From a virus (taxonomy: Duplodnaviria; Caudoviricetes): DNA of 64,000 nt. Where the stretch lies: IMG/VR virus record IMGVR_UViG_3300034062_005626; one strand, 5' to 3'. Shown here piece after piece: positions 7,645 through 54,651 of this stretch (position 1 is the stretch's first letter; every line of letters starts with the position of its first letter). A model generated the notes under the pieces. It ran no database searches and had not been told where the DNA came from. It was given only the letters and a program-made list of their open reading frames with translations. The position numbers and the translations under genes were made by a program.

Positions 7645-7962
7645 TTACATTCTTGAACCTAATCTACTTTCTAAGTCTCTTAATTCATCTCTTTTTGATG
7701 TATAAGTTCCAAAAGTGTCATCTTCATCGTGTGCACCATAACCTTTTTTAAGTCTTGCCATAATTGAACTTGCAACTTCATTTGGTTTTTCAACAATAAA
7801 CTTAGCTAATGTAATCATTTCGTCATTTCCTTTTTCAGAAAATTCAAAAGTTGCGAATATATCATCAAGAATGCTATTGATTTCTCTTCTATCGTTTTTG
7901 TCTTCTTTGATTACACGTCTAACAATACGTGATAAATCTCTTTCAGTTAATCTATTTCTCAT
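7645..7962 (-). CDS. leader-family protein (RLTERDL...RVIKE)
   Basis: Conserved N-terminal leader; TATTTATA motif upstream. Confidence 0.8.
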   Translation of the reverse strand: MRNRLTERDLSRIVRRVIKEDKNDRREINSILDDIFATFEFSEKGNDEMITLAKFIVEKPNEVASSIMARLKKGYGAHDEDDTFGTYTSKRDELRDLESRLGSRM

Positions 7963-8002
7963 AATAATATTTTTATTATAAATATATCATTAGTTGAAAA
8001 AA

Positions 8003-8500
8003 TTATTTAATCTCGAAAGCACACCTCATAATTTTTTTTGTTTTAACCGAATCCTCAAAGTTTCCAATAACAACACCATCTTTGATTGTAAATGCGTGTT
8101 GTCTAACTAAAACAAAGAATGTTCCTTTTGGGTTTTGTTTGATGAAAGTCCCAACGGTCATTTGTCTTAATTTGGTTTCTCCTTTGATTGTAACATTATA
8201 AGACAAAGAATTAATCAATGTGGAACTTTTTCTAACCCCAACAGGATAAACTTTTTTGTAGTTTACAGTCGTTCTATTGTCAGCCATTCTTACAAGTTTA
8301 CTTACAGTCCCATAAGTCCCTTTTTTTGGTTTTCTACCAAATTGTTCTGCAACATACTTATGTGCTTTGTCATATGGAATGTCAAATGCCGATGCAAATG
8401 CTCTAACAACACAGTCATTATTTTCTGATTTTGCAATCACTGATTCTGAATAACCTTGGATTGCTTTTGATGTGGCTTCGTATGGTAGTTTGTTTTTCAT
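8003..8500 (-). CDS. conserved hypothetical phage protein (NDCVVRA motif)
   Basis: 165 aa; TATATTTG promoter immediately upstream. Confidence 0.75.
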   Translation of the reverse strand: MKNKLPYEATSKAIQGYSESVIAKSENNDCVVRAFASAFDIPYDKAHKYVAEQFGRKPKKGTYGTVSKLVRMADNRTTVNYKKVYPVGVRKSSTLINSLSYNVTIKGETKLRQMTVGTFIKQNPKGTFFVLVRQHAFTIKDGVVIGNFEDSVKTKKIMRCAFEIK

Positions 8501-8546
8501 AATACAAATATACGAAAAATATTTAAATCAAAAAAATATGATAAAA

Positions 8547-8587
8547 TTTTTTGGTTTAATTTTTATGTGTATATTTGTAGAAATAAT
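8547..8587 (+). promoter_or_regulatory. 41-bp promoter block, copy 1
   Basis: TTTTTTGGTTTAATTTTTATGTGTATATTTGTAGAAATAAT, identical to 10070-10110; contains TTTG and TATATTTG. Confidence 0.8.
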
Positions 8588-8596
8588 ACAATCAAC

Positions 8597-9109
8597 ATGA
8601 AGATACTTTTAATAACATTCTTATTTATATTCTCGTTTTCTTTTGGTCAAAAGGTAAATGAACTTATTATTAAAAAAATTAATTTATATCGAAAACAAAA
8701 TGGTATTCCTGAATTAGTATATGAATCTAAAGCCAAATTGGCCAACGACCAAATGTTAAACTATATGATTGAGACATCTACATTACCTATGGACCATTCT
8801 CAAAGAATTGTATCTTCTTTTCCAACAACATTTGAAACATTCATAGATAGAATAACATATTTGTATGGGTACAACTACACATATATTGGGGAAAACCTTT
8901 GTAGTTTTAGAGATTTGAAGACGGATGAAGAAAGAGCGAATGAAGTGTTAGAGTTATGGAAAAATTCTCCTAAACATAATGCGTTGATGTTAAACCCAAA
9001 ATACAACGGATTTTGTGTTGGTAGTAAAACTTCAGATAAGATTATTATAGATGGGGTTACTTATGATAATGGTCAGATTTTTTATTGTGTTTTAACGGTA
9101 TATAAATAA
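8597..9109 (+). CDS. secreted CAP/SCP-domain protein
   Basis: Signal peptide MKILLITFLFIFSFSFG; INLYRKQNG, GENL and SPKHNALML CAP motifs. Start moved from 8567, which overlaps the promoter. Confidence 0.8.
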   Translation: MKILLITFLFIFSFSFGQKVNELIIKKINLYRKQNGIPELVYESKAKLANDQMLNYMIETSTLPMDHSQRIVSSFPTTFETFIDRITYLYGYNYTYIGENLCSFRDLKTDEERANEVLELWKNSPKHNALMLNPKYNGFCVGSKTSDKIIIDGVTYDNGQIFYCVLTVYK

Positions 9110-9155: not shown

Positions 9156-10001
9156 TTAATAAGTTTTTGTTGTTAATAATACTTTAAGTTCTGGGAATTT
9201 ATATTTAAATTCGTTGTTGAATTTCGGGAACACCCTTATATATGTCTTTTCGTCTTCATCACTACTAGTCCAAGAATTTTTTTTCCAATATGCATTTATT
9301 TCGTTAATTAGTGCTTCTAATTCTTCTTGTGTCATACTTTCAAACTTATCTAACTTTGCTCTATAGTCAGCCATTGTTGTTTTAAAATTTTGTGCATTTG
9401 CAGAGTCTTGAGCATTTAACTCCGCCCTTTTTTGTATTTCCGCATCTGTCGCAGCTTTTTGAGACGCCGCTGTCGCAGCTTCAGCCTCCGCCGCAGCAGC
9501 TTGCTTTGCATCATTTTGTTTACTTATATTCCAACCCTCGCATTGTTGTTTATAATGTTCAGGACTTTTCCACACTTTATCTTTTTGGTTAGGACAATGA
9601 GTATCTCTGAATTTTTGTAATTGACTATATGACGTTGCACATCCATTTTTTAATTGTTCTTTCCAATTACCGGTTAAACCTAATGTTGCTTCAGGATTTT
9701 TAATTACTTTACCACCAGAACCGAAAATCGCCCCAGGTTCTTGCGAGGTTCCTTTGTTTGTTGTTACATCATAAAACGAATTAGGGTCCCAAATACATTG
9801 GTAATAATATTGGTTTTTATCACCTCCCACTGAAAATCCTATATAATACATTCCTTGTTCAACTAAACTGTCTGACCGACCTGCATTATATATATTACCC
9901 GCCACAGTAGGTTCTTGTTCCTTTAAATACTGTCTTTTAATAGCATTTTTATGCATATTAAGTATTCTACTTTTTTCTTCTTCTGAAATTAAAAACTTCA
10001 T
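9156..10001 (-). CDS. leader-family protein (ISEEEKSRILNMH...QYLKE)
   Basis: Conserved leader; Ala-rich coiled segment. Confidence 0.8.
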   Translation of the reverse strand: MKFLISEEEKSRILNMHKNAIKRQYLKEQEPTVAGNIYNAGRSDSLVEQGMYYIGFSVGGDKNQYYYQCIWDPNSFYDVTTNKGTSQEPGAIFGSGGKVIKNPEATLGLTGNWKEQLKNGCATSYSQLQKFRDTHCPNQKDKVWKSPEHYKQQCEGWNISKQNDAKQAAAAEAEAATAASQKAATDAEIQKRAELNAQDSANAQNFKTTMADYRAKLDKFESMTQEELEALINEINAYWKKNSWTSSDEDEKTYIRVFPKFNNEFKYKFPELKVLLTTKTY

Positions 10002-10069
10002 AATCTTTGTGTTTTGTTTTTATTATTTAATATATAAATATAGAGTTGAATAAAAAAAACTAATAAAGT

Positions 10070-10585: not shown

Positions 10586-11068
10586 TTATTTAGGTTGTGC
10601 TGGTTGTTTATTTTTAAAATATGTGTTAACAACTTCCGTTACAGCACTTCGTAAAGCTCCAGTAACCGGACCTAGTGTTAACTTAGCGTCGGGTGTTGAT
10701 TTAACATAGTTGGTATATCCATTTACTAAATTTGGTAATAATAAAGAACTTAATTTTACCGTTGGGATATCGGTCCCTTTTACAGTTTCATTATATGATA
10801 TGGCCTGTAATAAAGTTGGGACATCTGGTGAAACTGTTGACGTATATACCGCTTTTCCATCTTTAACAATCGAAATAGTTCCATTGTTATTTAGTTGTAA
10901 TGTAATGGTCGGTAATTTATATGCTGTCATTTGACCATCAAACTTAGTTTTCATAGTGTTGAAATAGTTTGTTGCAACTTCTTCTTCCATCAAATATTGT
11001 CTTTCATTGATAACTCTTTTAACAATACGAGTTAGGTCTCTTTCGGTTAGTCTTATAATTTTTTTCAT
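10586..11068 (-). CDS. leader-family cassette protein 6
   Basis: MKKIIRLTERDLTRIVKRVINERQYLMEE leader; ends QPAQPK. Confidence 0.8.
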   Translation of the reverse strand: MKKIIRLTERDLTRIVKRVINERQYLMEEEVATNYFNTMKTKFDGQMTAYKLPTITLQLNNNGTISIVKDGKAVYTSTVSPDVPTLLQAISYNETVKGTDIPTVKLSSLLLPNLVNGYTNYVKSTPDAKLTLGPVTGALRSAVTEVVNTYFKNKQPAQPK

Positions 11069-11084: not shown

Positions 11085-11576
11085 TTATTTTTGTGTTGGT
11101 GTCGATTTTTTAATAATTTTTTGTATAAAAACCGTTTGTGGCCCAGATGATGGATTGTTCGGGTCTTTTTTTCTTACAAAACTTGCGGAGTTTCTATTAA
11201 ACATAGATGTATCAATTAAATCATCACTTTTCACATTATTAATCGCACTTATAAGTAAATCGGCATCGTTTCCTAACATGATTTCTCCATTTACATACTC
11301 ACCATTTAATTTTTGATTTGTTAATTTATTTGCAAATCCACCATTGATAATCATACTATTTAATATTCCTGTATATTCATTTGCGGCGTTTTTACCAAGC
11401 GGACCTATAGAAAAAGATATGTTTTTATTTCTATCTATTTGACCATTGATTGTTGGAATATTTAAACTTAAAACTACAGATTGAACCGCTTCCATTAAAT
11501 ATTGTCTTGAAGTTGCACTTTGATGCATTTCCAAAATTCTACTTTTTTCTTGTTCTGAGATTATAAATTGTTTCAT
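11085..11576 (-). CDS. leader-family cassette protein 5
   Basis: MKQFIISEQEKSRILEMHQSATSRQYLME; ends PTQK. Confidence 0.8.
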   Translation of the reverse strand: MKQFIISEQEKSRILEMHQSATSRQYLMEAVQSVVLSLNIPTINGQIDRNKNISFSIGPLGKNAANEYTGILNSMIINGGFANKLTNQKLNGEYVNGEIMLGNDADLLISAINNVKSDDLIDTSMFNRNSASFVRKKDPNNPSSGPQTVFIQKIIKKSTPTQK

Positions 11577-11588: not shown

Positions 11589-11957
11589 TTATTTTTGAGT
11601 GGGTTTCTTTTTTTTGTACTCTACAATTTGCATTAATAAATTGTCCAAGGTTTCTTTAATTTTACGACCAATTGTTCCATCAAATTGTGATTGCATTCCC
11701 CAACCTCGTAAAGTACTTTTCATAATATAATCACTACCCATATTAACCGGACTGTCTAGTTGTTTCAATGCTCTTTGTGGGTTTTTTATATATCCTCGGC
11801 AAATAATACTGTCATCACTGGCGTCATAACTAAATATAAATGTATAATTCGGAAATTCTAAATTAGGAACTTTTGGTAATGTTGGTGCTTGTTCATTAAT
11901 AACCCTTCTTACAATTCGAGCTAAATCTGACTCAGTTAATCTTACAATTCTTTTCAT
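11589..11957 (-). CDS. leader-family cassette protein 4
   Basis: MKRIVRLTESDLARIVRRVINE; ends PTQK. Confidence 0.8.
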   Translation of the reverse strand: MKRIVRLTESDLARIVRRVINEQAPTLPKVPNLEFPNYTFIFSYDASDDSIICRGYIKNPQRALKQLDSPVNMGSDYIMKSTLRGWGMQSQFDGTIGRKIKETLDNLLMQIVEYKKKKPTQK

Positions 11958-11980: not shown

Positions 11981-12520
11981 TTATTTTTGAGTTGGGATGT
12001 ATTCTTTTCCTTTTTTTATTGTAACTCCACCCGTTTTTGGGGTATTTGTATCTGAAAATTTAGTTACATTTCCAGATGGAAAGATTCCAAAGTTTATTTT
12101 AGTTACACCCCCCATTGAAGCTTTCCCGGACAGGTAAATATATCCATCACCACCTTTTACAAATTTTTGAGGACCAAAAGTTGTTATAGTACCTTCACCA
12201 GCACCACCTCCAAGGTCTATACTATTTAGAGTGTAGGTTTTCATATTTGGGTTTTTACTTAATTCTTTTGCTAAATCTGGGTCACCATCCAAAGCTAAAA
12301 AAGTTGGGACGTATTCCGGCTTGAAAAACGCTTCTTTAGCAGGAACCTCTACAATATTACCTTTTTGGTCTTTAATTTTTTTGTAAGGTAAAGTAATAAT
12401 CACTGAATTGTTTTTACTTGTTGCTACATATTGTTCCATTAAATATTGTCTTGAAGTTGAACTTTGGTGCATTTCCAAAATTCTATTTTTTTCTTGTTCT
12501 GATATAATAAATTGTTTCAT
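11981..12520 (-). CDS. leader-family cassette protein 3
   Basis: MKQFIISEQEKNRILEMH...QYLME; ends PTQK. Confidence 0.8.
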   Translation of the reverse strand: MKQFIISEQEKNRILEMHQSSTSRQYLMEQYVATSKNNSVIITLPYKKIKDQKGNIVEVPAKEAFFKPEYVPTFLALDGDPDLAKELSKNPNMKTYTLNSIDLGGGAGEGTITTFGPQKFVKGGDGYIYLSGKASMGGVTKINFGIFPSGNVTKFSDTNTPKTGGVTIKKGKEYIPTQK

Positions 12521-12532: not shown

Positions 12533-12976
12533 TTATTTTTGAGTTGGCATTTGTTTTTCAATAATTGTAGGTTTGACCCCAAATTGAGTGCCTTGTTCGG
12601 CGATAACCATATTCCCTTCTAAAACTTGTGGTCCTTTATTTATCTTTGGTTTTAATATATTGATTTGTTCGGGAGTAAGGGAAAATTGACCATTAATAAT
12701 ATTACCTTTTAAAGATTGATAACTTGGTCCCACTTCAATCTGATTAAATAAAGAAATTTGTCTAATTGTTTTTATATTGTGAGTTGAAATATCAGCACTA
12801 AAAAAAACAGTTGGGGAATATTTTTTAATATTTCCCGGTGCTAAATTATATTGTAAAGTTAAAGACAATAAAATAACCTGAGAAAGGTCTTCGTTTAAAT
12901 ATTGTTTTGACGTGGCATTTTGGTGCATTTCCAAAATTCTTTGTTTTTCTTGTTCTGATATAATAAATTGTTTCAT
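12533..12976 (-). CDS. leader-family cassette protein 2
   Basis: MKQFIISEQEKQRILEMH...QYLNE; ends PTQK. Confidence 0.8.
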   Translation of the reverse strand: MKQFIISEQEKQRILEMHQNATSKQYLNEDLSQVILLSLTLQYNLAPGNIKKYSPTVFFSADISTHNIKTIRQISLFNQIEVGPSYQSLKGNIINGQFSLTPEQINILKPKINKGPQVLEGNMVIAEQGTQFGVKPTIIEKQMPTQK

Positions 12977-12988: not shown

Positions 12989-13669
12989 TTATTTTTGAGC
13001 CGGTCCTGCAATTGTATCATAAACCGTTTTAGCGACTCCTGTTAATTTAGCTCTAGTTTCTTTAGATAGATTTTTTGCGTAGGAACCTAATTTTAAATTG
13101 TTTGCAATTGTAACTAACTTTGCGGCGTCAAAACCAGGAAAATGTTTGGATATATCGGCAGCAACTTCGTCGTCAGTTTTTACTTCGAGTTTAGTAGATA
13201 ATTTCAATGAACCATTATTGGCTATTATGTCACCAAAACTTCCCGACAAATAAAATTTTTGGGCTGCTGAGCCGCTACCTGTGTCAGGACTACCATAAAA
13301 GAAATACGGAACTTCATTCATTGTAGTATCAGGAAAATCTAAAGTTAGAACCGTTGCCGGATTAGCATATTTGGGTCTACCATATGTTCTTGGTCCAAAA
13401 GTATAGACATATATAGTCCAATTAGTCTGACCTTTTGCCGCTCTAAAATATGCCTTTGAACCATACACACCAACACTTGTTTCTCCTGTTTTATCGGCAG
13501 CTTTAAGTTTTGGTTCCAATACTGTTTTTAAATCAGGATAAGCGGTAAGTAGACCATTGTCATCGGTGATTTCCATCAAAAATTGTCTTGATTTTTCTTC
13601 CATTATTCTATTTTCCAACATCAAGTTTGATTGTTGCATGTGTCTAATTTTACTATAACTTCTATTCAT
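12989..13669 (-). CDS. leader-family cassette protein 1
   Basis: MNRSYSKIRHMQQSNLMLE...RQFLME; ends PAQK. Start moved from 13702, which overlaps a TATTTATA motif. Confidence 0.8.
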   Translation of the reverse strand: MNRSYSKIRHMQQSNLMLENRIMEEKSRQFLMEITDDNGLLTAYPDLKTVLEPKLKAADKTGETSVGVYGSKAYFRAAKGQTNWTIYVYTFGPRTYGRPKYANPATVLTLDFPDTTMNEVPYFFYGSPDTGSGSAAQKFYLSGSFGDIIANNGSLKLSTKLEVKTDDEVAADISKHFPGFDAAKLVTIANNLKLGSYAKNLSKETRAKLTGVAKTVYDTIAGPAQK

Positions 13670-13704
13670 AATTTTATTATTTAAATATAAATATGCCAAC
13701 AAAC

Positions 13705-14796: not shown

Positions 14797-15096
14797 TTAC
14801 ATTCCAATAATTAAATCATCAGGATTAAATCCTCTTGACCCCTTAATTCTATCTTCCATTTCATCATACATATATGATTTAACAACCGCCAAAATTGATT
14901 GTTCTGATTGGGCAATTTTTGTTTCCATCCAATCTTCAAGTTGTTCACCTTCTTCCATCATTTCCCACATTTTATGTGCCAAAGTTGCAATTGTAAAAAG
15001 TTGTTGTTTTGCCATGTAAGAACCTCCTTCATGGTTTTCTTTAAGTTGTTTTACAACCTCTTCAAGTTGTTCTTCTGTTATAATAATTCTTCCCAT
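14797..15096 (-). CDS. leader-family protein (IIITEEQL...LKE)
   Basis: 99 aa; LEDWMETKIAQ motif. Confidence 0.75.
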   Translation of the reverse strand: MGRIIITEEQLEEVVKQLKENHEGGSYMAKQQLFTIATLAHKMWEMMEEGEQLEDWMETKIAQSEQSILAVVKSYMYDEMEDRIKGSRGFNPDDLIIGM

Positions 15097-15100: not shown

Positions 15101-15469
15101 TCACCAAGTTCTACAAGCCCAATATCTTGGTTTCCATCTTGGGCCAGGATTATCGCAATTGTGTCTTGCTCTAAATGAACGTCTCCTTTCAGGATTGTTC
15201 TTTTTAATCACCATTCGTTTTCCTTTTGCTGATTTTCCACCAAACCCAAAGTTCACTTTAACAACCTTTCCTTTGTCGTTTTTAACGTATACCTTGAACT
15301 TTTTGATGTCTCCTTGCATAATCTTACCAAGTTGAACTTTTCGTCCCTGATACTCCGCCTCATGTATCAAGTTTATTTCTTCAACATTGCCGTAAATGTC
15401 TTCATAAATAAAATCCTGATGGAATGATTCTTCAATTAAAATCTTTCGTATGGTTGATAAAATATTCAT
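15101..15469 (-). CDS. conserved phage protein (SFRARHNCD...RYWAC) with leader
   Basis: Motif common in T4-like phages; start moved to MNILSTIRKILIEE. Confidence 0.75.
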   Translation of the reverse strand: MNILSTIRKILIEESFHQDFIYEDIYGNVEEINLIHEAEYQGRKVQLGKIMQGDIKKFKVYVKNDKGKVVKVNFGFGGKSAKGKRMVIKKNNPERRRSFRARHNCDNPGPRWKPRYWACRTW

Positions 15470-15582
15470 AACAATAAATATATCATTAATAAAAAAAGGT
15501 GAAGTCTCCTTCACCTTAATTTTGGGTCGACACGGTTCGTGCCAACATCTCTCCACCACTTTGTTTTTATAGAACAAAGAAA

Positions 15583-18589: not shown

Positions 18590-20097
18590 CTATTTTCAAT
18601 TTTTTTATTTAAAATATCCACAAAAGTATTTTTCATATCTTTTACTAAATCCGAATAAGTTCTTTTTGGAGTACTTTCTGTTTCATCTTCAAAATTTATA
18701 CCTTCTCTTCTTATTTGATTAAGAGCCGCTTCAATTTGTTTTTCTGACAACTTTCTAAATCTTAAAAGTTTTTGTTTAATGTCTTTAACAAAATTATTAT
18801 CTCCTTCGTAATTTGCAATCGGTAATGTTTCTTCAGGTAAATCTTTAGTGTATGGTTTATCATATCCACTATATAGGAAGTTTATTCCTGATATGTTGGT
18901 AATACATTTATGTCCTCCTGAATTTGCTTTCAGAAAGTCATAACCATTAATAGTTAGTTTTTCAGAATCAAATGAAGGCATTTTACCATATAATGCCATC
19001 ATATCTTTTGTTGTGAATCCAACTGACTCGGGAGTTGCCTCTCTTTCTGAGATTCTTTTAATAATTCTAAAACTTAATATTTCTTTTTCTAATTCAGGTT
19101 TGAAGATATTTAAAACTTCATCTTTGATTTCACCTAAGTTTATACCTTTAAGTGCTCTTTCTTCTTTAAATGGATTACAAGATGCTTGAACCATTCCGAC
19201 TTGCCCTCCAAGACCTGTAACTAGAAAGTCTGCGTCAGGGTGTATTCTAAATGGAACGTATCTATCATAAGAACCTTTTCTCATACTACCTAACCCATAT
19301 TGTGATATAACATTTCCTGTTTTTTCTATTGCCCCTTCTTTCTTTCTTGCTTCTATGAATTTTTCTTGATTTTGTGTCATAGTTTCAACCGTGGCATATC
19401 CTTGTTCTTTTGCAATTTTTGTTATTGTATTATATAAATTTTCAAGTGATGGTTCGCAGTTCATTACTAAATATTCAAGAAAATTTCTACCATTAACCTT
19501 ATCATTTTTATACGATAAAAGAAGTTTATTAACGACAAGCCCCATCATCATTTTATTTCTTTTAACACTTTCATATTTGTCATACTTAAAAACAAAATTC
19601 ATTACCATTTCTGGAGTTATTTGATTTACAGCAAAGTTTGCCGAATCGACTGTCGATATTAGATATAAATCTTCGTCTTTAAATAAATCTTTTGGTGAAA
19701 TTGTTTGAGAAATTGTTTCAACATTGGACCTTGCGTGTTTAAAACTTGTCGCAGTATCGTCTTCGACACCGGATTGACTATCGTGATGGTCTGTATGAAT
19801 AACAAACATTGGTTTACCGTGTGCAAAATCAACTAAGACCGGCATAATGTTCCCTTCACCTTCAGGTTTTTTTATTGCAAATTCTTTTGACCCGTACTGT
19901 ATTACTTCACAATCAACAACATCAATACCATTTTGTTCCAAATAGTTTTTCATGGCTATTGCCGTTGTAACACCATCTAAATCTTGATGAAAATAAATTT
20001 TAGCCTTTGGGTATCTTTTTGCAATATCATTAATATCTCTAATACCTGATTCTTTAATCATCATTCTAAATTGACTTTCAGTTATAATAATTTTCAT
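18586..20097 (-). CDS. DHH-family phosphoesterase-like protein with leader
   Basis: HQDLDG, VDF, TDHH and GGH motifs; MKIIITESQF...IKE leader. Confidence 0.75.
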   Translation of the reverse strand: MKIIITESQFRMMIKESGIRDINDIAKRYPKAKIYFHQDLDGVTTAIAMKNYLEQNGIDVVDCEVIQYGSKEFAIKKPEGEGNIMPVLVDFAHGKPMFVIHTDHHDSQSGVEDDTATSFKHARSNVETISQTISPKDLFKDEDLYLISTVDSANFAVNQITPEMVMNFVFKYDKYESVKRNKMMMGLVVNKLLLSYKNDKVNGRNFLEYLVMNCEPSLENLYNTITKIAKEQGYATVETMTQNQEKFIEARKKEGAIEKTGNVISQYGLGSMRKGSYDRYVPFRIHPDADFLVTGLGGQVGMVQASCNPFKEERALKGINLGEIKDEVLNIFKPELEKEILSFRIIKRISEREATPESVGFTTKDMMALYGKMPSFDSEKLTINGYDFLKANSGGHKCITNISGINFLYSGYDKPYTKDLPEETLPIANYEGDNNFVKDIKQKLLRFRKLSEKQIEAALNQIRREGINFEDETESTPKRTYSDLVKDMKNTFVDILNKKIENS

Positions 20098-21095
20098 AAA
20101 TAAGTTTCTCCAATATTTGTTAATTCTTCAGAAGAATATTTATCTCCATTTTGTTTTTTCCCTCCATTTGTAACTTCCCAACCAATCATTCTGTTAATAA
20201 TACTTTGTTGTATCCATTTGTCAGTTAGAGGATTTCCAAGTCTGTAATTACTTTCTTCAGGATTATTATAAAAATAAAGTTGTTTACCAATATCCCAATA
20301 CGCCCAACTTTTACTCATACCCGCAGCGCTTATTTCTTTATTTACTTTGGTTGTCATCAAATTTTTGAACCTGTCAACTAAATTATTTACCAACGATTCA
20401 ATTTCATTTGGGTTTTCTTTTGATAATGCTTCGGCGTATTTTTTCATACTTTCACTGGGTTCTGCAGTATTAAATCCAACATCACTGTAGTTTAATTTTG
20501 ATATGTATTGGTCAGGACCGCTCGTTGGTTTGTTTTTTTTGATGTTTGGTTGATTAGTTTCAAAATTTGAGGTTATTTTATTCGCACTAGCTATTCTTTT
20601 TAATCTATAAACCCTTTCTTTTAGTCCTGGTATTTCGTCAACAATTTTATTTACTTTGTCCCAATTTATGGGTTTATCATAGAGTAGTATATCAGAACGC
20701 AAATCTAAATCATAACATTGATTTTCAGACCCCCCATTAAGAAGACATAACGCTTGTTTCATTTCCAAGTACCGTTGATTTCCAGTTCCCCAAAAATGTT
20801 TACGTACATAATCTATAAACTTGAAGTCTCTTGTAAATAAATTTATTAATTCATCAATGGACTTGGCTTCTTCTATTTTTTCATAAACAAAAATTCTTTC
20901 CCCAGCATCAATAGATTCTTGTCTTAATTTTAAATATTTTCCCCCATTATACATTTGATTTACAGCATCCTCATGTGATGTATTTTTAACATATTCAAAC
21001 CAATTATCTATAATTTTTTTATCCTCTTCTTTAGTTTCACAAATTCCCATGACTTGTTTAATTCTTAAAATTTGTTCGTTGAGGATTGTATTCAT
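20094..21095 (-). CDS. leader-family hypothetical protein
   Basis: MNTILNEQILRIKQVM leader; start moved from 21119. Confidence 0.7.
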   Translation of the reverse strand: MNTILNEQILRIKQVMGICETKEEDKKIIDNWFEYVKNTSHEDAVNQMYNGGKYLKLRQESIDAGERIFVYEKIEEAKSIDELINLFTRDFKFIDYVRKHFWGTGNQRYLEMKQALCLLNGGSENQCYDLDLRSDILLYDKPINWDKVNKIVDEIPGLKERVYRLKRIASANKITSNFETNQPNIKKNKPTSGPDQYISKLNYSDVGFNTAEPSESMKKYAEALSKENPNEIESLVNNLVDRFKNLMTTKVNKEISAAGMSKSWAYWDIGKQLYFYNNPEESNYRLGNPLTDKWIQQSIINRMIGWEVTNGGKKQNGDKYSSEELTNIGETYL

Positions 21096-36654: not shown

Positions 36655-38223
36655 TTATTGTGTTTTTCTATCATAACCAATTAAACTTTTCATTTTTTCC
36701 ATTTCGGTCAAAACATTTTGTTTGTCAGTGGATTCTAACTTCATCATAATTTTGTCAGCACCTGACTCAGACCCGCTCTTGTCAGTAACGACAGGTTGAG
36801 GTGCTTTGTTATATGCCTTCTTTTTTAATTTTGACAAATAATTATTTTTTCTTACTTCATCTCTTTTTGCGTTCACAGGAGTTTCTACTGCATTTGCCCA
36901 TTTTGGGTTATTACCTGTTTCTGATGAACCTTTTACATATTTAGATACTCTTTCTTCATTTGGTTCAAAAGTGTCGTAATCTAAGTTCTCTAAACTTGCC
37001 GCTGTGAAGTTAGTTATATATTCATCAACCGCCTTAGATGGTACGTAAGCCATTTTATCCATTTTTTCAAGTTCTCCATTCCCTTTGGGAAAATTCTTTG
37101 GTGACATTTCGTATTTACCTTTAGAACCTGTTTTTAAATAAGATTTCATTTTTTTAACAACACTATCAATATAGTCCTCTTCTTGTTTTTTAGATTGACC
37201 TAATGATGATTTCAAATATGTATCAGATTTAGTTGCTTTTTTTCTTTTTTCTTCTAAAACAATATTCTCAATTAAACTTATCATTTCATTTTCTGTAAAA
37301 ATCAATCTTGACTCTTCAACTTTTGCCTTTCCTTTACCTGGCCAATCTTTTTTTGCTCTCTTAGCAAAGTATAATTGTCCCATTTTTTCTCGACTTGAGC
37401 TTGGTACTTTTTTACCTAATCTTTTTAATTCTGAATTTCTTTTCTTAATTTTTTTAATTTCGGTGTCTATCTCATCAATTGTCATATCTGCATACTCACC
37501 AGTACTTTTAACTTCAACATCTCCTTTCCATTTTTCAGTTATGTATGACTCTTCAACGGGGTAAGTTTTGTTTCCGACTCTAAAAGTTTTATCTCCTCTT
37601 TCTCTTGCTGCTGATAATGCACCTGAAAAAGCATTTCCTTCTTCAACATCTTCTTCTTCTAAATCCAACTCATATAAAGTTTCTTCCACTTCTTTTTTCA
37701 TAGAACGAAGTGCTTTAAAGTCTGCACCTGTAATTTTACCAAATGGTTTCGCCTTATCTATTTTCCGTCTACCATCTGTAAATCCATCATATTCTTCATC
37801 TAAATAAAATTCATCTTCTTCTTCAAATGATTGTCCAAGTTCTCTATCTTTATTTTTCATATGATGTTTCATTCTTCTTATGTTTGGCATATCGTCATCT
37901 TCAAATGAAAATGTATTTTCTAAATCTTCGTCTTCCTCTCTGTTTCTAAAAAATCTTTCTATATCTTTTTTTGGTATATCTCGTAAATTTTTACCCCCAA
38001 AAAAAGGATGAGAATCATCCATACCTCCTAATTCATTTATATTACCTTCATATGTACCACACTGTTCGCATGTTTCACCTTCATACATTTTACCACCACA
38101 TTGTTCACACATTTCTTCTTTCATATTTTTATTTTCAAATATTTTATTTTCTATGTCAAAAATTCTATTATCTATCTCTTCAGATATAATTCTTTTTGTT
38201 ATGTTTTTTATGTAATTTTCCAT
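36655..38223 (-). CDS. large acidic leader-family (probably head-associated) protein
   Basis: Many hydrophobic-x-E sites; leader ...RIISEE. Confidence 0.7.
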   Translation of the reverse strand: MENYIKNITKRIISEEIDNRIFDIENKIFENKNMKEEMCEQCGGKMYEGETCEQCGTYEGNINELGGMDDSHPFFGGKNLRDIPKKDIERFFRNREEDEDLENTFSFEDDDMPNIRRMKHHMKNKDRELGQSFEEEDEFYLDEEYDGFTDGRRKIDKAKPFGKITGADFKALRSMKKEVEETLYELDLEEEDVEEGNAFSGALSAARERGDKTFRVGNKTYPVEESYITEKWKGDVEVKSTGEYADMTIDEIDTEIKKIKKRNSELKRLGKKVPSSSREKMGQLYFAKRAKKDWPGKGKAKVEESRLIFTENEMISLIENIVLEEKRKKATKSDTYLKSSLGQSKKQEEDYIDSVVKKMKSYLKTGSKGKYEMSPKNFPKGNGELEKMDKMAYVPSKAVDEYITNFTAASLENLDYDTFEPNEERVSKYVKGSSETGNNPKWANAVETPVNAKRDEVRKNNYLSKLKKKAYNKAPQPVVTDKSGSESGADKIMMKLESTDKQNVLTEMEKMKSLIGYDRKTQ

Positions 38224-39850: not shown

Positions 39851-40396
39851 TTATTCTTCTTCTGTAAATTTAGTTTTTTTCCTAACTGAAATTATTTTTG
39901 CCCATTTGCTTTTAAATTTTTCAAAAAAAGATTTTAATTTGTTTGTCAAATCAACAAGCTCTTGGTCCAATTTAATCATATCACCATTTATATATACACC
40001 GTTGTTTTCACCAATAGAATAGAAAAACTCAACGTCAGCATCAACTATCTTACCACTCCATTGAACTGAATTACTATAAACATTTAGTACTCCAAAGTCT
40101 GAAAGGTCAGATACTTCATTAACAAATTCTTCCATGGTTTCTTGATAAGATTGTTTTTCGTCGTTTGTTAATTCCAACTCTTTTTTATCTTTACCGTGAA
40201 GAGTTAAAAGACCCCCCGATATACGATAAGTTTTACTTTTGTCTTTTTTTACTTTATCAACATCCACATCAGTTTCTTGTTCTTCATCTTGTTCGATGTT
40301 GTCTTCAATACTTTTTGCCATATTAATTGGCCCTACTTGTTCTTGCAAAAGTCTAGACCTTTTCAACAACATTTTTATTTCATCATACTGGTTCAT
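39851..40396 (-). CDS. leader-family hypothetical protein
   Basis: ...KRSRLLQEQ leader. Confidence 0.7.
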   Translation of the reverse strand: MNQYDEIKMLLKRSRLLQEQVGPINMAKSIEDNIEQDEEQETDVDVDKVKKDKSKTYRISGGLLTLHGKDKKELELTNDEKQSYQETMEEFVNEVSDLSDFGVLNVYSNSVQWSGKIVDADVEFFYSIGENNGVYINGDMIKLDQELVDLTNKLKSFFEKFKSKWAKIISVRKKTKFTEEE

Positions 40397-42233: not shown

Positions 42234-42771
42234 ATAAGTAAATAACTAATATGTTATTGTTTTTTATTCCTTCTATTGTAACTCTTTTTGATTTTTTTTC
42301 TTCAACATCAGTCTTTAAAAACTGACCATCATTTGAAAATGCAGATGTTATTATATTGAAAAAATTACCATCTTTATTTAGTAAAATTTCAACATAATTA
42401 AAATGCTTGTCGTCTTCATTATCCTTTCTTTTTTTAACAAAAATAATTTGATTATTTTCAGGTTTTTCAGTTTCGAATGAATTATAAATTTTTTCTAAAC
42501 TATTTTCAAACAATTTTTTTATCATGGAGTCAGGAACTGCTATTCTTGGTGGTTGTACGTATTTTGAGCGTCTAGTTGCAAGGTGGTCGTTATACATATC
42601 AACTAAACTATCATAACTTTCTTTACCAAACCTTTCTTTTCTTTGGTGGTAAGTTGATTTTAATTGTATCAATTTATTATCTATGATTTTAGAAAATAAA
42701 ACCGTACCTCTATCTTTTTCTTTTTTAGATTCAACTATGATGATATTTTTTAATACGGATAATAAATTCAT
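42232..42771 (-). CDS. leader-family hypothetical protein
   Basis: MNLLSVLKNIIIVE; start moved from 42807. Confidence 0.7.
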   Translation of the reverse strand: MNLLSVLKNIIIVESKKEKDRGTVLFSKIIDNKLIQLKSTYHQRKERFGKESYDSLVDMYNDHLATRRSKYVQPPRIAVPDSMIKKLFENSLEKIYNSFETEKPENNQIIFVKKRKDNEDDKHFNYVEILLNKDGNFFNIITSAFSNDGQFLKTDVEEKKSKRVTIEGIKNNNILVIYL

Positions 42772-42784
42772 ATCATATAAATAC

Positions 42785-51844: not shown

Positions 51845-51952
51845 TTTATTATATAATTTATGTTTATTTTAATTGTTGAATTGTCCCAACTGGTATTTAT
51901 GTACCAAACAGGTGTAATTGTAGTTTCCATAGTGAAATATAATTTATTAGTT

Positions 51953-52813
51953 TTATTTAGTCAAATATTCAGACATATCCATTTTCAAAATAGTGTCGAC
52001 GACATCTCTTGGTATTCGGTATTCTTTGAACTCAACGTTTTCTGTTAAATGAACAATTACACCACCCATTAGTGGAATATTTTCATATTTAGTCCCTTCT
52101 AACATCTTTAATAATAACTTACCATAAAAAGGTAATTGTGTGTTGTAGTGACCAAGAGCGTTGTTTGGGAGTTTTTCAAAAGGTTTTTTCATGGGTTTTG
52201 TGTAGTCATTTACTTCCATGTTTTTTTCCTTGTTGGTTTTCCAATCCGTAATTACAATACCGAATCCGGTTTTTTGTTTATTTAACATTAACCAAACTTT
52301 ATCGGGCTGACCAGTATATCCTAATTCAGGATGACCTAAAACAATCTCCGTATCAAGTAAGACAGCTCCTCGTTCTTCCATGAGTGACAAAAACTTTTTA
52401 CCAGCCTTTATCATTCTATCGCCTTTCATAGTAAGTTCTAAATCACATTCAAATAATGGTTGTCGAACTTCTTTATCTATTTTGAATTTGTTAATTGTTT
52501 CTAATTCAAGTTCATAGTGAACCCTACTACCCATATTTGTTGAAATGATTCCGGATTGTTTCCACTCTTCTAAATAAGTGTGCATCGCATATGGACTACC
52601 TTTCGCCAATTTTCTTGCAACATCCTCAGCCGGAAATTCATCATAAAATAACTTCATCACTTTTGATACAGATGGGAAATCATCTCTAACAACACCATTC
52701 ACATCTAACATTGTGTACTTGTGTTTATCTTCTTCAAAAGTTAATTGAAACTCTTTTTGTTTTTCAGAAATAATCTCTCGTATTTCTTTTGCTACTTCTT
52801 TTAAATCTATCAT
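51953..52813 (-). CDS. PD-(D/E)XK exonuclease
   Basis: GSRVH..LE...E...GQPD...DWKT...QL..Y. Confidence 0.85.
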   Translation of the reverse strand: MIDLKEVAKEIREIISEKQKEFQLTFEEDKHKYTMLDVNGVVRDDFPSVSKVMKLFYDEFPAEDVARKLAKGSPYAMHTYLEEWKQSGIISTNMGSRVHYELELETINKFKIDKEVRQPLFECDLELTMKGDRMIKAGKKFLSLMEERGAVLLDTEIVLGHPELGYTGQPDKVWLMLNKQKTGFGIVITDWKTNKEKNMEVNDYTKPMKKPFEKLPNNALGHYNTQLPFYGKLLLKMLEGTKYENIPLMGGVIVHLTENVEFKEYRIPRDVVDTILKMDMSEYLTK

Positions 52814-53727
52814 TTAAATTCTACATAATATTTTTCGATGTCACCTTTAAGGTCACACACATCTTTATCTTTTGGCAACTTCACTAACTTAACTCTGTTA
52901 TATAAAGCTCCTCCGTTTAGTTTGTCATATAGGTTTTTAGCGTCGGTATATGCGTCGCCATCCAAGCAAACTATAATATTTTTTTTCGCCTTTGAGTATA
53001 GTTTTTCCCAAAGGTTGTCTGTTAAAAACTTCCCTAATAGACAAATTGAATTGTCCAAAAAGAAACTATCAAAGACTCCTTCAACAAGGTATATATCTTT
53101 TTTCCAATCAATTAAACTCTCATTAAAAATTAAAAAGTCTTTTGATGCTTCAGGGTTTTTGTATTTTAATTTACTTCGTGGGTTCCACGACCTTGATACG
53201 AAAAAGTTTAATTCTCCTTTTTTATCAAAAGATGGAACAATGATTCTACCGGAATATTCACCCTCTAAACATAGACCAATTTGATACTTTTCTATAATCT
53301 CATCAGTGATTCCTCTTTTTTTCAAATAATTAAAAGCCTCTTTTCTTGGAATATGAAGTGGGTGTATCTCGTCAAACTTTTTATATTCTTTTGGTAATTC
53401 AAGTTTTTTGTAAACCTTTTCTTTTTTTTCAAACTCATCGGGTCTAATTAATTTATATATTTTTTTATCTTTTTTTGAACCAAACTTATCTATAAGTTTT
53501 CCTAAGTGTCCGTGAGTACCATGCGTCTCAGCACACCCCCAACACTTGTAAACATGTTGTTGGTAATTAATCTCAAGGTTTCCCTTTCCATCTAACTTGT
53601 CAAGACCTTTAATTGTATATGAACACACAGGGCAATCAACCGATATTTGACCTCTTAGTTCATTTACTGATTTTGGTTCCCCAAAAATATTACCAATAAG
53701 GTCTATGATTAACTCTTCCGATTCCAC
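52810..53727 (-). CDS. DNA primase (zinc finger plus Toprim)
   Basis: CPVC, CWGC, YLKKRGI, VEGVFD, LDGD, KD. Confidence 0.92.
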   Translation of the reverse strand: MESEELIIDLIGNIFGEPKSVNELRGQISVDCPVCSYTIKGLDKLDGKGNLEINYQQHVYKCWGCAETHGTHGHLGKLIDKFGSKKDKKIYKLIRPDEFEKKEKVYKKLELPKEYKKFDEIHPLHIPRKEAFNYLKKRGITDEIIEKYQIGLCLEGEYSGRIIVPSFDKKGELNFFVSRSWNPRSKLKYKNPEASKDFLIFNESLIDWKKDIYLVEGVFDSFFLDNSICLLGKFLTDNLWEKLYSKAKKNIIVCLDGDAYTDAKNLYDKLNGGALYNRVKLVKLPKDKDVCDLKGDIEKYYVEFK

Positions 53728-53764
53728 ATATAAAAGATAAGAATAATATGTGGATTGTCAATTA

Positions 53765-53796
53765 ACAAAAAACCCACCTTTGTGGGTGGGTTTTAA
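53765..53796. terminator. intrinsic terminator
   Basis: AAAAAACCCACCTTTGTGGGTGGGTTTT. Confidence 0.75.
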
Positions 53797-53811
53797 TATT
53801 TAAATATTTTT

Positions 53812-54651
53812 TTATCTAAAAGACAAATTTTGACGACAATATAATTGGTAGTTTTGTTTTTTTCCGTCAGTCTCTACCCTAATTATCCCTTCAAATTCGA
53901 CTAAACCTTCTTCGTTCACTTTTTCTAATGAAGTACCGCCCCTTACTAATTTTTGTTTTGCTCTAAGCACAAAAGTTTCACCAGGGTTTACGGTAAAAGG
54001 AACTTGTTTATCAATTCTCATACCGCTATTCATAGGAAGAATCCTTTTTATAGTAATTGGTGCACTTCCAGAATTTTTAATACCTCTAAATGTAAATTCA
54101 ATATCTTGTCCAAATCTAACTTCAGCATCTGGATTTCTCGCAACCAATGTTCCTGTCAACGGACCTCCAAACCCACCAATTGGACCTTGACCTTGCTCAT
54201 TAATAAATCTACGTCTAATATGTGATTCATTCATTCTTGAATTATCTCCACCAACCATTGGTAACCACACATGTTTCATAAACAATGTGGCTAATGTTGC
54301 GAAAGTAAGAGACGCACCTACATTAAAGATTTTTTCTTTCGGTTCCTTTCTTTTAAAATCCCTTTTAATACTTCTAACTTCTCTTTTAATTTTTCTTCCT
54401 GTTCTTCTAAACCATTGAGCTAATTTTTTTAACCATTTTGGTTTTCTTTTTGATAATTCTATAATGTAGTTTTCAGCATCTTCTTCTGTCATATCTGCAA
54501 ATAAATTATCTACACATCTTTCCATTGCCATATCATCGTTTTCGTCACAATTTTCTATAGCAACTTCAGCTTGCATATTTGTATTTTCATTAACAATTCT
54601 TCTAACAAGTCTTGTTAAATCTGATTCCGTTAGTCTTACTATTCTTTTCAT
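53812..54651 (-). CDS. leader-family protein with C-terminal DUF1573-like Ig domain
   Basis: MKRIVRLTESDL leader; F.F..KNSGSAPITI...VNPGE. Confidence 0.75.
   Translation of the reverse strand: MKRIVRLTESDLTRLVRRIVNENTNMQAEVAIENCDENDDMAMERCVDNLFADMTEEDAENYIIELSKRKPKWLKKLAQWFRRTGRKIKREVRSIKRDFKRKEPKEKIFNVGASLTFATLATLFMKHVWLPMVGGDNSRMNESHIRRRFINEQGQGPIGGFGGPLTGTLVARNPDAEVRFGQDIEFTFRGIKNSGSAPITIKRILPMNSGMRIDKQVPFTVNPGETFVLRAKQKLVRGGTSLEKVNEEGLVEFEGIIRVETDGKKQNYQLYCRQNLSFR

What the first reader, a model, noticed from the sequence alone, without database searches (positions are those of the whole stretch)
7645..54651. Genome-wide family of N-terminal leaders ending in hydrophobic-x-Glu on unrelated cargo proteins
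Seen: at least 18 otherwise unrelated ORFs start with recurring leaders (RLTE.DL..IV.RVINE; IISE.EK.RIL.MH...QYL.E; IIITE.Q; L..IIVE/ILIEE; NEQI.RIK). Most are preceded by a TATTTAT motif. Cargoes include a DHH phosphoesterase, an LRR protein, a HExxH protein and an Ig-like domain. Established: T4 internal proteins use a short capsid-targeting sequence removed by prohead protease gp21 after (I/L)xE. Inference: a modular capsid-loading tag that delivers a large, swappable effector arsenal with the DNA.
Basis: partly seen in the sequence, partly recalled or inferred. Interest (0 to 1): 0.72.

Follow-up and report, generated by a model that had tools for sequence, protein, structure and literature searches.

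The report
Shared head-loading tags on phage proteins
About 18 unrelated late proteins of this uncultured T4-like jumbo phage begin with variants of one short helical tag. The tag ends in the cut motif of T4-type head proteases, so it is most likely a "load into the capsid, then cut off" label, but neither packaging nor cutting has been shown.

Summary
The core observation is real. Eighteen minus-strand genes between 7.6 and 54.7 kb start with 13-33-residue amphipathic leaders ending in hydrophobic-hydrophobic-x-Glu. Nine are statistically solid (classes "RLTExDLxRIVRRVINE" and "FIISEQEKxRILEMH..QYLxE"). Nine are weak alone but supported by ortholog alignments and late-promoter context.

Selection acts on the peptide: invariant residues use 4-5 synonymous codons. 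The Glu is invariant and the residue before it is free. Homology between cassettes stops at the Glu codon. The same cargo carries different leader classes in sister phages.

Relatives have a T4-type head module: a Peptidase_S77 protease, and a gp23 capsid protein whose propeptide ends in LINE|A, the leader's own ending.

A leader profile finds 9,036 protein clusters in public data, almost all unnamed and matching at residue 1. A rumen variant occurs in 225-413 kb phages and as orphan genes in Prevotella chromosomes.

Best reading (about 0.6): a longer, conserved analogue of the T4 capsid-targeting sequence. Packaging, cleavage and ejection are untested, and the window's own protease could not be examined.

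This scan had already reached the same reading in other windows of this genome (e1-5369324, e1-5369325).

The DHH cargo is confirmed. The HExxH and Ig-like cargoes are not.

The parts
7903..7962 (-). Class A leader MRNRLTERDLSRIVRRVIKE| of gene 7645-7962 (105 aa)
   Evidence: HMM E 1.5e-11, begins at Met1. TATTTAT at 7978-7984.
9918..10001 (-). Class B leader MKFLISEEEKSRILNMHKNAIKRQYLKE| of gene 9156-10001 (281 aa)
   Evidence: HMM E 1.1e-18. TATTTAT at 10034-10040.
10985..11068 (-). Composite leader of gene 10586-11068: class A (to VINE|) followed by the class B tail RQYLME|
   Evidence: Class A HMM E 1.3e-14. Cross-scores to class B of 47-57.
11490..11576 (-). Class B leader (29 aa, ends YLME|) of gene 11085-11576
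   Evidence: HMM E 3.8e-22. DNA is near-identical to the copies at 12520 and 12976 from -24 to the Glu codon.
11892..11957 (-). Class A leader MKRIVRLTESDLARIVRRVINE| of gene 11589-11957 (122 aa)
   Evidence: HMM E 1.3e-15. First row of alignment A1.
12434..12520 (-). Class B leader of gene 11981-12520 (179 aa)
   Evidence: HMM E 1.9e-21. DNA cassette.
12890..12976 (-). Class B leader of gene 12533-12976 (147 aa)
   Evidence: HMM E 6.6e-22. DNA cassette.
13571..13669 (-). 33-aa leader ending EEKSRQFLME| (class B tail) of gene 12989-13669, the first gene of the six-gene array
   Evidence: The leader is 73-94% conserved in three relatives, while the cargo differs straight after the Glu. A terminator-like hairpin and TATTTAT at 13687-13693 lie upstream.
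15037..15096 (-). Class C leader MGRIIITEEQLEEVVKQLKE| of gene 14797-15096 (99 aa)
   Evidence: In 16 orthologs IIITE and the terminal phi-x-E are kept. A variable linker follows, then an invariant cargo starting GSYMAKQQLF.
15428..15469 (-). Class D leader MNILSTIRKILIE(E)| of gene 15101-15469 (corrected start)
   Evidence: Orthologs of the same cargo carry either class D or class A-type leaders. TATTTAT at 15474-15480.
20050..20097 (-). Class C leader MKIIITESQFRMMIKE| of the DHH/DHHA1 phosphoesterase gene 18586-20097
   Evidence: E16-S17-G18 is invariant in 29 orthologs, and some have a 7-aa leader MKKLLKE|. AF2 gives a low-confidence hinge at residues 15-18. The fold matches PggH, RecJ and GdpP.
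21036..21095 (-). Leader MNTILNEQILRIKQVMGICE| of gene 20094-21095 (corrected start)
   Evidence: Orthologs read MKNIITE.ILRIKQMMGIFE|. A hairpin and TATTTAT at 21100-21106 lie upstream.
26356..26394 (-). Class D leader MSLEKIIKRVIYE| of gene 25195-26394 (399 aa, acidic, no PDB fold match)
   Evidence: Class A HMM E 1.7e-6. P1 Glu is kept in 90% or more of 31 aligned orthologs, with P2 = Y/C/K/I/S/N. AF2 gives pLDDT of about 50-64 for the leader helix against above 90 for the rest. TATTTAT at 26400-26406.
32199..32243 (-). Leader MAIRFTNILRDIIVE| of the LRR-like protein gene 30879-32243
   Evidence: DLI(V/I)E is conserved in 39 orthologs, but so is the sequence after it. TATTTAT at 32260-32266. 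Weak member.
38179..38223 (-). Class D leader MENYIKNITKRIISE| of gene 36655-38223 (522 aa, CxxC zinc-ribbon-like motif)
   Evidence: Class A HMM E 0.04. Orthologs read IISE/VLSE/ILQE/ILRE/VLLE/ILKE. TATTTAT at 38228-38234.
40340..40396 (-). Leader MNQYDEIKMLLKRSRLLQE| of gene 39851-40396 (181 aa)
   Evidence: 27 orthologs keep (M/L)L(M/Q/F)E|Q, followed by a variable region. It resembles the class B tail.
42730..42771 (-). Leader MNLLSVLKNIIIVE| of gene 42232-42771 (corrected start)
   Evidence: Distant orthologs read MKMLQTLRSII(A/V)E|Q. A hairpin and TATTTAT at 42777-42783 lie upstream.
54586..54651 (-). Class A leader MKRIVRLTESDLTRLVRRIVNE| of gene 53812-54651 (279 aa)
   Evidence: HMM E 7.3e-14. 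Orthologs in L001-L007. TATTTAT at 54678-54684.
54184..54219 (-). Internal partial leader copy (HIRRRFINE|QGQG) inside gene 53812-54651
   Evidence: Second HMM stretch in the same protein. Sequence. Many database relatives carry a full second copy.

Best explanation
The leaders are variants of one N-terminal propeptide, a basic amphipathic helix of 13-33 residues. It has an early (I/L)-(T/S)-E and a terminal hydrophobic-hydrophobic-x-Glu.

Proposed mechanism:
1. The genes are transcribed late, together with the head genes.
2. The helix docks the protein onto the assembling scaffold core of the prohead.
3. After shell closure, the phage's T4-type serine protease (gp21 family, Peptidase_S77) cuts after the Glu, as it does in the major capsid protein propeptide.
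4. The mature cargo stays free inside the head. At least some cargoes then enter the host with the DNA.

Because tag and promoter are shared, recombination at the tag exchanges cargoes. This produces hypervariable cassette arrays.

Shown:
- The tag exists.
- It is selected as a peptide.
- Its junction lies at the Glu.
- It is exchangeable between cargoes.
- It shares a promoter motif with head genes.
- It co-occurs with S77 proteases.
- Its ending matches the inferred capsid-protein cut site in relatives.

Inferred: docking, cleavage, packaging and ejection.
For: (1) Reality and position:
- N-terminal scores are 68-137 with unrelated remainders.
- HMM hits start at Met1.
- 140 of the 150 best database hits match at residues 1-3.

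(2) Peptide-level selection, in 28 class A leaders:
- Invariant L7 uses 5 codons.
- T8 uses 4 codons.
- S10 uses 5 codons, from both codon families.
- R14 uses 4 codons.

(3) Cut-site signature:
- E22 is invariant in 30 local and 69 database sequences.
- P3 is I/V/L.
- P2 is free: N, K, Q, S, R, L or E.
- The same pattern holds in the weaker families.

(4) Junction at the Glu:
- Array copies are about 95% identical in DNA from -24 to the GAA codon, then unrelated.
- The 13669 leader is conserved while the cargo changes straight after the Glu.

(5) Modularity:
- Class A sits on at least 30 cargo families and class B on 16.
- Three cargo families each carry two different leader classes: p155 (classes D and A), the 15101 family (D and A) and family 33 (A and B).

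(6) Machinery in relatives:
- The syntenic relative G002 (65-85% nucleotide identity) has TerL, a gp20 portal, an S77 protease with catalytic His and Ser, an acidic scaffold and a gp23 capsid protein.
- The capsid propeptide ends (H/F)LINE|A in five close relatives, LISE|A and LLKE|A in two distant ones, and IVSE|A in cultured Flavobacterium phage immuto.
- That site is placed between ENQ (propeptide in T4) and the mature VRR motif.
- The scaffold has an invariant LVKE|S.
- Small head-module proteins carry the leaders.
- S77 is present in 12 of 16 large leader-bearing records from lakes and rumen.

(7) Late context:
- TATTTAT precedes the portal, protease and scaffold genes in G002.
- It precedes all 18 leader units here.
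- In the complete relative G005, 44% of TATTTAT-headed genes have phi-phi-x-E in the first 35 residues, against 17% of other genes (p = 3e-7).
- Tail-fibre-like late proteins and the portal lack leaders.

(8) Structure: AF2 puts the leader as a low-confidence detached helix before well-folded cargo.

(9) Established knowledge (PMC9026906):
- gp21 cuts after L/I-x-E.
- It removes 7-65-residue propeptides.
- 10-19-residue capsid-targeting sequences suffice to load foreign proteins.
Against: - No virion proteome, cleavage assay or cultured member exists for this clade.
- The window's own protease, scaffold and capsid genes could not be read here.
- [IL]xE is common in this AT-rich proteome (1.2 per 100 aa internally), so the nine weak leaders are individually uncertain.
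- In the DHH and LRR proteins, conservation continues unbroken across the putative cut, so there the helix could be part of the mature protein.
- Some orthologs of the 15101 family lack the terminal Glu (IVNN, VTNN).
- A near-identical variant occurs as 1-2 orphan genes in Prevotella chromosomes, in non-phage neighbourhoods, in genomes where no S77 was found.
- Three large leader-bearing records gave no S77 match.
- No control set of leader-free jumbo phages was examined.
- There is no detectable sequence similarity to any T-even internal protein family.
Confidence: 0.6

Rival explanations
1. The leader is a functional helix that stays on the protein. It would be a docking, oligomerisation or partner-binding module used for something other than capsid loading, for example binding a host factor, membrane or nucleic acid. 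The terminal Glu would be structural and not a cut site.
For: - Orphan copies exist in Prevotella chromosomes, in genomes where no S77 protease was found.
- Full internal copies occur in 56 of the 150 best database hits.
- Conservation is uninterrupted across the putative cut in the DHH and LRR proteins.
- Some orthologs lack the terminal Glu.
Against: - The Glu is invariant while P2 is free, and the ending equals the capsid-propeptide ending.
- Cargo conservation usually restarts only after a variable linker.
- Orthologs tolerate leaders shortened to 7-14 residues that keep only phi-phi-x-E.
- The tag is restricted to late units and absent from tail and portal proteins.
- The Prevotella variant is also found in 225-413 kb phages with S77 proteases, so the orphans may be phage-derived.
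Confidence: 0.17
2. The leader is a protease-removed propeptide, but not the address label. It would keep cargo inactive or soluble until head maturation, or act as a piece of scaffold, while packaging is directed by other parts of the proteins.
For: The same cut-site evidence as the main reading. In T4, targeting residues and processing residues within the capsid-targeting sequence are separable (PMC9026906). Cargoes share nothing else that could be tested here.
Against: The cargoes are unrelated, so no other common element is available to direct packaging. The conserved part is far longer than a cut site needs.
Confidence: 0.12
3. Only classes A and B are a true family. The short IIITE, IIVE and NEQI-type leaders would be chance hydrophobic-x-Glu matches in an AT-rich, Ile/Lys/Glu-rich proteome.
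For: Individual HMM E-values run from 0.04 to above 1. Among genes without the promoter motif, 17-25% also have phi-phi-x-E near the N-terminus.
Against: - Orthology links the classes: one cargo carries class A in some phages and class D in others.
- N-terminal enrichment holds against internal controls.
- P1 and P3 are conserved across tens of orthologs.
Confidence: 0.1
4. The shared sequence is only a DNA-level recombination handle or selfish cassette end, or an mRNA or translation element, with no function as a peptide.
For: In the tandem array, promoter-proximal DNA and leader are about 95% identical and identity stops abruptly.
Against: Class A leaders are diverged in DNA but conserved in protein, with 4-5 synonymous codons at invariant residues. 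There are 9,036 clusters sharing the peptide.
Confidence: 0.04

Closest known systems
Phage T4 capsid targeting sequence (CTS) of internal proteins IPI, IPII, IPIII and Alt, removed by prohead protease gp21 (PMC9026906, PMC3012670)
   Same: - An N-terminal peptide on otherwise unrelated proteins.
- It ends in (L/I)-x-Glu.
- The phage lineage has a gp21-family protease, a gp22-like acidic scaffold and a gp23 capsid protein with a propeptide.
- Many small cargoes are basic.
   Different: - The leader is 13-33 residues against 10-19 in T4.
- No sequence similarity was detected.
- It is strongly conserved across thousands of cargo families and two ecosystems.
- It has two Glu sites per tag (LTE and INE).
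- Full internal copies suggest polyproteins.
- There are about 18 tagged genes in 47 kb, against four in all of T4.
- Nothing has been shown experimentally.
Polymorphic internal-protein (ip) loci of T-even phages, with conserved CTS-like starts and variable bodies (cited in PMC9026906 and PMC3012670; the original papers were not read here)
   Same: The promoter plus leader stays constant while the cargo is swapped, inserted or deleted between close relatives.
   Different: There are several leader classes that exchange on the same cargo. Arrays of up to six cassettes occur. The scale is far larger.
Propeptides of inner-body and ejection proteins of phiKZ, 201phi2-1 and SPN3US, cut by gp175/gp245-type proteases (PMC9026906, PMC10052503)
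   Same: A jumbo phage with many head-internal proteins processed after Glu, and multiple cut sites per propeptide.
   Different: Their motif is S/A-x-E, while here P3 is I/V/L. They have no shared conserved leader sequence, and they belong to a different phage lineage.
Encapsulin cargo-loading peptides, and the Dar protein packaging of phage P1
   Same: A short terminal peptide or a dedicated system addresses unrelated cargo to the inside of an HK97-fold shell.
   Different: Encapsulin tags are mostly C-terminal and are not removed. P1 Dar loading depends on specific partner proteins. The resemblance is by analogy only and was not tested here.

Membership tests
T4-type CTS / gp21-processed head-internal proteins | A short N-terminal peptide shared by otherwise unrelated proteins | tested here: met
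   high N-terminal similarity, unrelated remainders, hits starting at Met1.
T4-type CTS / gp21-processed head-internal proteins | The peptide ends in the (L/I)-x-Glu motif of gp21-family proteases | tested here: met
   Glu invariant, P3 I/V/L, P2 free. The motif definition comes from PMC9026906.
T4-type CTS / gp21-processed head-internal proteins | The same genome encodes a gp21-family protease and a gp23 capsid protein whose propeptide ends in the same motif | tested here: inconclusive
   The window's own assembly is not held. The feature is met in the syntenic relative G002 and in 11 further large leader-bearing records. Earlier scan notes say the window's own genome has them, but this is unchecked.
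T4-type CTS / gp21-processed head-internal proteins | Sequence homology to the T4 CTS or to T-even internal proteins | tested here: not met
   No Pfam or PHROG match of any leader protein to internal-protein families. tblastn with two leader proteins (11589-11957 and 53812-54651) against GenBank phages found nothing. The leader was not aligned directly with the 10-residue T4 CTS.
T4-type CTS / gp21-processed head-internal proteins | The protein is found inside virions with the leader removed, and the leader suffices to load a foreign protein | not testable with these tools
   Needs virion mass spectrometry and fusion experiments. There is no cultured member.
T4-type CTS / gp21-processed head-internal proteins | Expressed with the head genes | tested here: inconclusive
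   The TATTTAT motif is shared with the portal, protease and scaffold genes of G002 and heads all 18 units here. Timing itself is inferred.
T-even polymorphic ip loci | Conserved promoter plus leader with cargo exchanged between close relatives | tested here: met
phiKZ-like processed inner-body proteins | Cleavage motif S/A-x-E and a gp175-type protease | tested here: not met
   P3 is I/V/L in all leaders. The protease in relatives is Peptidase_S77 with a T4-like gp23, gp20 and gp17 module.
Double-glycine / RiPP leader peptides | The leader ends in GG/GA and the gene sits beside a C39 peptidase transporter or a modifying enzyme | tested here: not met
   The sequences end in x-Glu, with no GG. 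The Pfam scans of window genes returned no C39 peptidase or transporter domain.
Sec / Tat / lipoprotein signal peptides | Hydrophobic core of 10 or more residues after a short basic start | tested here: not met
   The leaders are charged amphipathic helices with K/R/E/D every 2-4 residues.

The most novel reading that the evidence does not exclude
The tag may be a widely shared capsid address code of Bacteroidota jumbo phages.

Two further features are not excluded by the evidence:
- Proteins with two or more tag copies could be polyproteins, cut into several packaged cargoes.
- The single orphan tag genes in Prevotella chromosomes could be host proteins that use the phage's own address to get loaded into progeny capsids. 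That would be a decoy or Trojan-horse defence, or a domesticated phage cargo.
Probability: 0.07. Interest if true: 0.88.

Novelty: new variant of a known kind. Interest (0 to 1): 0.62.

Why it matters
If the reading holds:
- A 22-residue sequence would mark which of thousands of unnamed jumbo-phage proteins are packed into the head, and probably injected. That set would be the first proteins to meet the host and likely counter-defence candidates, such as the tagged DHH phosphodiesterase.
- It would turn a one-phage curiosity (the T4 capsid-targeting sequence) into a general, searchable rule for a large clade of uncultured lake and rumen phages.
- It would explain the clade's hypervariable cassette arrays.
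- It would offer a natural tag for loading foreign proteins into capsids of Bacteroidota phages.
- The Prevotella orphans also hint at hosts for the rumen jumbo phages.

Tried and rejected
- Searches of GenBank phages with window DNA and with three window proteins found nothing. The clade has no deposited close relative.
- The window's own assembly is not held, so its protease and capsid genes were not examined.
- Pfam and PHROGs gave no informative match for 17 of the 20 proteins scanned. The exceptions were weak DHH and LRR matches and one exonuclease, which is a non-member. 69 database leader proteins gave only two marginal Pfam matches, one to GNAT.
- The search for related loci with the leader alignment failed because the alignment is too short. 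A degenerate DNA pattern replaced it.
- Leader plus scaffold complex prediction gave no verdict. It counts neither for nor against binding.
- The Foldseek PDB search for the 25195-26394 cargo gave no significant match.
- The cultured relative Flavobacterium phage immuto has the S77 protease and an IVSE|A capsid site but no class A leader, so it is not a ready model.
- A full-text search for the motif letters found no paper.
- No HExxH cargo exists among leader proteins in the range.
- Signal-peptide, bacteriocin-leader and pure DNA-handle readings were considered and rejected on sequence grounds.

Full report
**What the window is.** The window has 30% G+C. Nearly all genes are on the minus strand, and it holds a cluster of tRNA genes. 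It has no relative in GenBank phages but many in IMG/VR.

A 219.5-kb contig (G002) is syntenic with window 13.7-64 kb at 65-85% nucleotide identity. G002 carries a T4-type head module:
- a large terminase;
- a gp20 portal;
- a Peptidase_S77 (gp21) protease, at 87.6 bits, with the catalytic His and Ser;
- a 511-residue acidic scaffold-like protein;
- a gp23 major capsid protein, at 248 bits.

The nearest cultured capsid relatives are Flavobacterium phage immuto and Microcystis phage Mel-JY01, at 42-43% identity. The window's own assembly is not held. All statements about protease and capsid therefore come from relatives.

Two classes are beyond doubt:
- Class A (M-K-R/K-I-V-R-L-T-E-S/R-D-L-x-R-I-V-R/K-R-V-I-N-E) heads the genes ending at 7962, 11068, 11957 and 54651.
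- Class B (M-K-Q-F-I-I-S-E-Q-E-K-x-R-I-L-E-M-H-Q...R-Q-Y-L-x-E) heads those ending at 10001, 11576, 12520 and 12976.

Their first 50 residues score 68-137 by Smith-Waterman, where the 99th percentile of all pairs is 40. The rest of each protein scores at background.

HMMs of each class hit only at the initiator Met, apart from short second stretches inside proteins already hit, and a few lower-scoring class B hits that start 14-29 residues into the longest ORF.

The class A model also finds 25195-26394 (E 1.7e-6) and a head-module protein of G002. It gives 27 hits at E<1 among 627 N-terminal segments, against 2 among 404 internal control segments.

Nine further leaders are individually weak (ATG at 13669, 15096, 15469, 20097, 21095, 32243, 38223, 40396, 42771). 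Four of them only appear once a start codon downstream of the longest ORF's is used.

Alignments of 4-65 orthologs from IMG/VR show that each keeps hydrophobic-hydrophobic-x-Glu with a free residue before the Glu. Examples are VIYE/VICE/VIKE/VLKE/LLKE/VLIE/VLSE/VLNE in the 25195 family and LI(K/N)E|SGIRD in the DHH family. The count of about 18 therefore stands, in two grades of certainty.

**The promoter motif.** TATTTAT lies 4-32 nt before the ATG of 10 of the 18 genes. The other 8 follow in the same co-directional, tightly spaced units: the six-gene array headed at 13669, and the pairs 15469/15096 and 21095/20097.

The same motif precedes the portal, protease and scaffold genes of G002 and tail-fibre-like genes here. 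It is a general late-type promoter candidate, not a leader-specific signal.

In the complete relative G005, 44% of genes directly behind TATTTAT have the phi-phi-x-E motif in their first 35 residues, against 17% of the others (p = 3e-7). That suggests some tens of tagged proteins per 290-kb genome. Sixteen score with the class A or B models alone.

**What kind of element it is.**

First, selection acts on the peptide. Among 28 class A leaders, the invariant Leu7 is written with five codons, Thr8 with four, Ser10 with five (both codon families) and Arg14 with four.

Second, the junction is at the Glu:
- The three class B copies of the array are about 95% identical in DNA from 24 nt upstream of the ATG to the GAA codon, and unrelated after it.
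- The 33-residue leader at 13669 is kept at up to 94% in relatives, whose cargo differs from the residue after the Glu.

Third, tag and cargo are independent:
- In the sampled relatives, class A sits on at least 30 BLAST-unrelated cargo families and class B on 16.
- The array downstream of the conserved gene 14797-15096 has different cassettes even in phages 87-99% identical elsewhere.
- Three cargo families each carry two different leader classes in different copies (the first two compared between sister phages, the third as two genes in one relative's locus): the head-module protein p155 (classes D and A), the 15101 family (D and A) and cargo family 33 (A and B).

Class D is the second half of class A. 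Gene 10586-11068 even joins a class A leader to the class B tail.

Fourth, AlphaFold2 models place the leader as a low-confidence helix ahead of a confidently folded body. In the 25195 protein, pLDDT is about 50-64 for residues 1-17 against above 90 for the rest. In the DHH protein, a hinge below 50 falls at residues 15-18, exactly at the Glu.

**Why capsid loading and cleavage is the best reading.**

T4 gp21 cuts after L/I-x-E and removes propeptides of 7-65 residues. The 10-19-residue propeptides of the internal proteins are capsid targeting sequences that suffice to load foreign proteins (PMC9026906 and PMC3012670).

In relatives of this phage, the capsid protein's N-terminus aligns with T4 gp23. 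The ENQ motif lies within the T4 propeptide and the VRR motif within the mature protein. The only phi-x-E between them is (H/F)LINE|A. The site reads:
- LISE|A and LLKE|A in two distant 335-349 kb relatives;
- IVSE|A in the cultured immuto phage.

This is the ending of the class A leader (VINE, VISE, IIKE...).

Further points:
- The scaffold-like protein has an invariant LVKE|S.
- Small proteins encoded beside the capsid gene carry the leaders.
- The portal and the fibre-like proteins do not.
- Peptidase_S77 was found in 12 of 16 large leader-bearing viral records.

All of this is indirect. No step of docking, cutting, packaging or ejection has been observed. A complex prediction of leader with scaffold gave no verdict.

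**Reach of the tag.** A profile of 30 class A leaders, searched against 1.84 billion cluster representatives, finds 9,036 proteins at E<=0.001 and 764 at E<=1e-10.
- Of the best 150, 140 match at residues 1-3.
- 56 of those 150 carry a second, internal copy, arranged as leader-cargo-leader-cargo. The window's 53812-54651 protein has a partial internal copy.
- Sixty-nine of the longer hits gave only two marginal Pfam matches (one to GNAT, one to a RhoGAP FF domain), and the eight clusters looked up carry no name beyond "hypothetical protein".
- No paper in the library contains the motif.

It hits only 37 places in 596 Gb of prokaryote genomes.

About 22 of those 37 are true N-terminal leaders, nearly all of a variant form, MNKKLIRLTESDLHRIVKESVNRVLNE. 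They occur in Prevotella and other Bacteroidales, including the isolates Segatella bryantii DSM 11371 and Prevotella sp. MA2016. Each genome has one or two copies, next to ordinary cell genes or an IS element, and no S77 protease was found.

The same variant occurs on 52 viral contigs, among them 225-413 kb phages with S77 proteases. The chromosomal orphans are thus probably of phage origin. Their function is unexplained, and they are the main observation that does not fit a pure capsid-tag reading.

**Cargoes.**
- The 503-residue protein (18586-20097) is a true DHH/DHHA1 phosphoesterase. The DxD, D, DHH and GGH motifs are invariant in 29 orthologs. Its model matches PggH, RecJ, GdpP and NrnA with probability 1.0.
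- The LRR assignment of 30879-32243 is weak.
- No leader protein in the range has HExxH, and the Ig-like domain was not confirmed.
- The 25195 protein has a confident model with no significant PDB match by Foldseek.
- Six of the seven small array proteins are net basic, as are the T4 internal proteins.

**Comparison and novelty.**
- In working principle, the closest known system is the T4 capsid-targeting sequence together with the polymorphic ip loci of T-even phages.
- Membership in that system is not established. The defining experimental features cannot be tested here, the window's own protease could not be read, and no sequence similarity was detected.
- The differences are length, strong conservation, two Glu sites per tag, several interchangeable classes, internal copies and a very large cargo repertoire.
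- I class it as a new variant of a known kind.
- This scan had already reached the same reading in other windows of the same genome (e1-5369324, e1-5369325). New here: the database-wide census; the codon test; the exchange of leader classes on one cargo; the capsid cut-site comparison across eight relatives; and the rumen and Prevotella branch.

Noticed in passing
window 7282-7355 (-): A tRNA with an 8-nt anticodon loop. ARAGORN reads a four-base anticodon, cgaa, and Rfam scores it as tRNA at 37.6 bits. It may be a quadruplet-decoding or +1 frameshift tRNA. Earlier notes report a ribosome-hop site in the same genome.
   Followed up: partly
window 15474-15480, 21100-21106, 26400-26406, 38228-38234, 42777-42783: The late-type TATTTAT motif lies only 4-5 nt from the ATG. 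These transcripts would be leaderless or nearly so, and no Shine-Dalgarno sequence is visible.
   Followed up: no
L324 6932-7195; L331 about 6200; G015-G021: Prevotella and other Bacteroidales chromosomes, including two isolates, hold 1-2 orphan genes starting MNKKLIRLTESDLHRIVKESVNRVLNE. They sit in non-phage neighbourhoods, and no S77 protease was found in the two isolate genomes searched. The same variant is on 225-413 kb rumen phage contigs.
   Followed up: partly
database hits P0001-P0044: Many leader proteins carry a complete second leader copy 60-290 residues into the protein, which would fit polyproteins cut into two cargoes.
   Followed up: partly
window 22973-24091 (-): A phage-encoded glutamine-synthetase-like gene (Pfam Gln-synt_C at 61.5 bits, Gln-synt_N at 35.7 bits).
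   Followed up: no
window 53812-54651 (-), residues 68-133: Behind its leader, the class A protein has an acidic stretch, a very basic stretch and then a hydrophobic, membrane-span-like segment. A second partial leader and a beta-rich C-terminal domain follow.
   Followed up: no
L278 and L280 (G006, G013 head modules): The portal genes of two relatives are 1,031 and 1,340 residues long instead of about 600. The gp20 homology restarts at residues 576 and 896, which suggests an insertion such as an intein or another domain.
   Followed up: no
window 26473-27060 (+): An ORF starting GIYKIGN...GKTYIGSS, typical of a GIY-YIG homing endonuclease. It is on the opposite strand with its own TATTTAT motif.
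   Followed up: no
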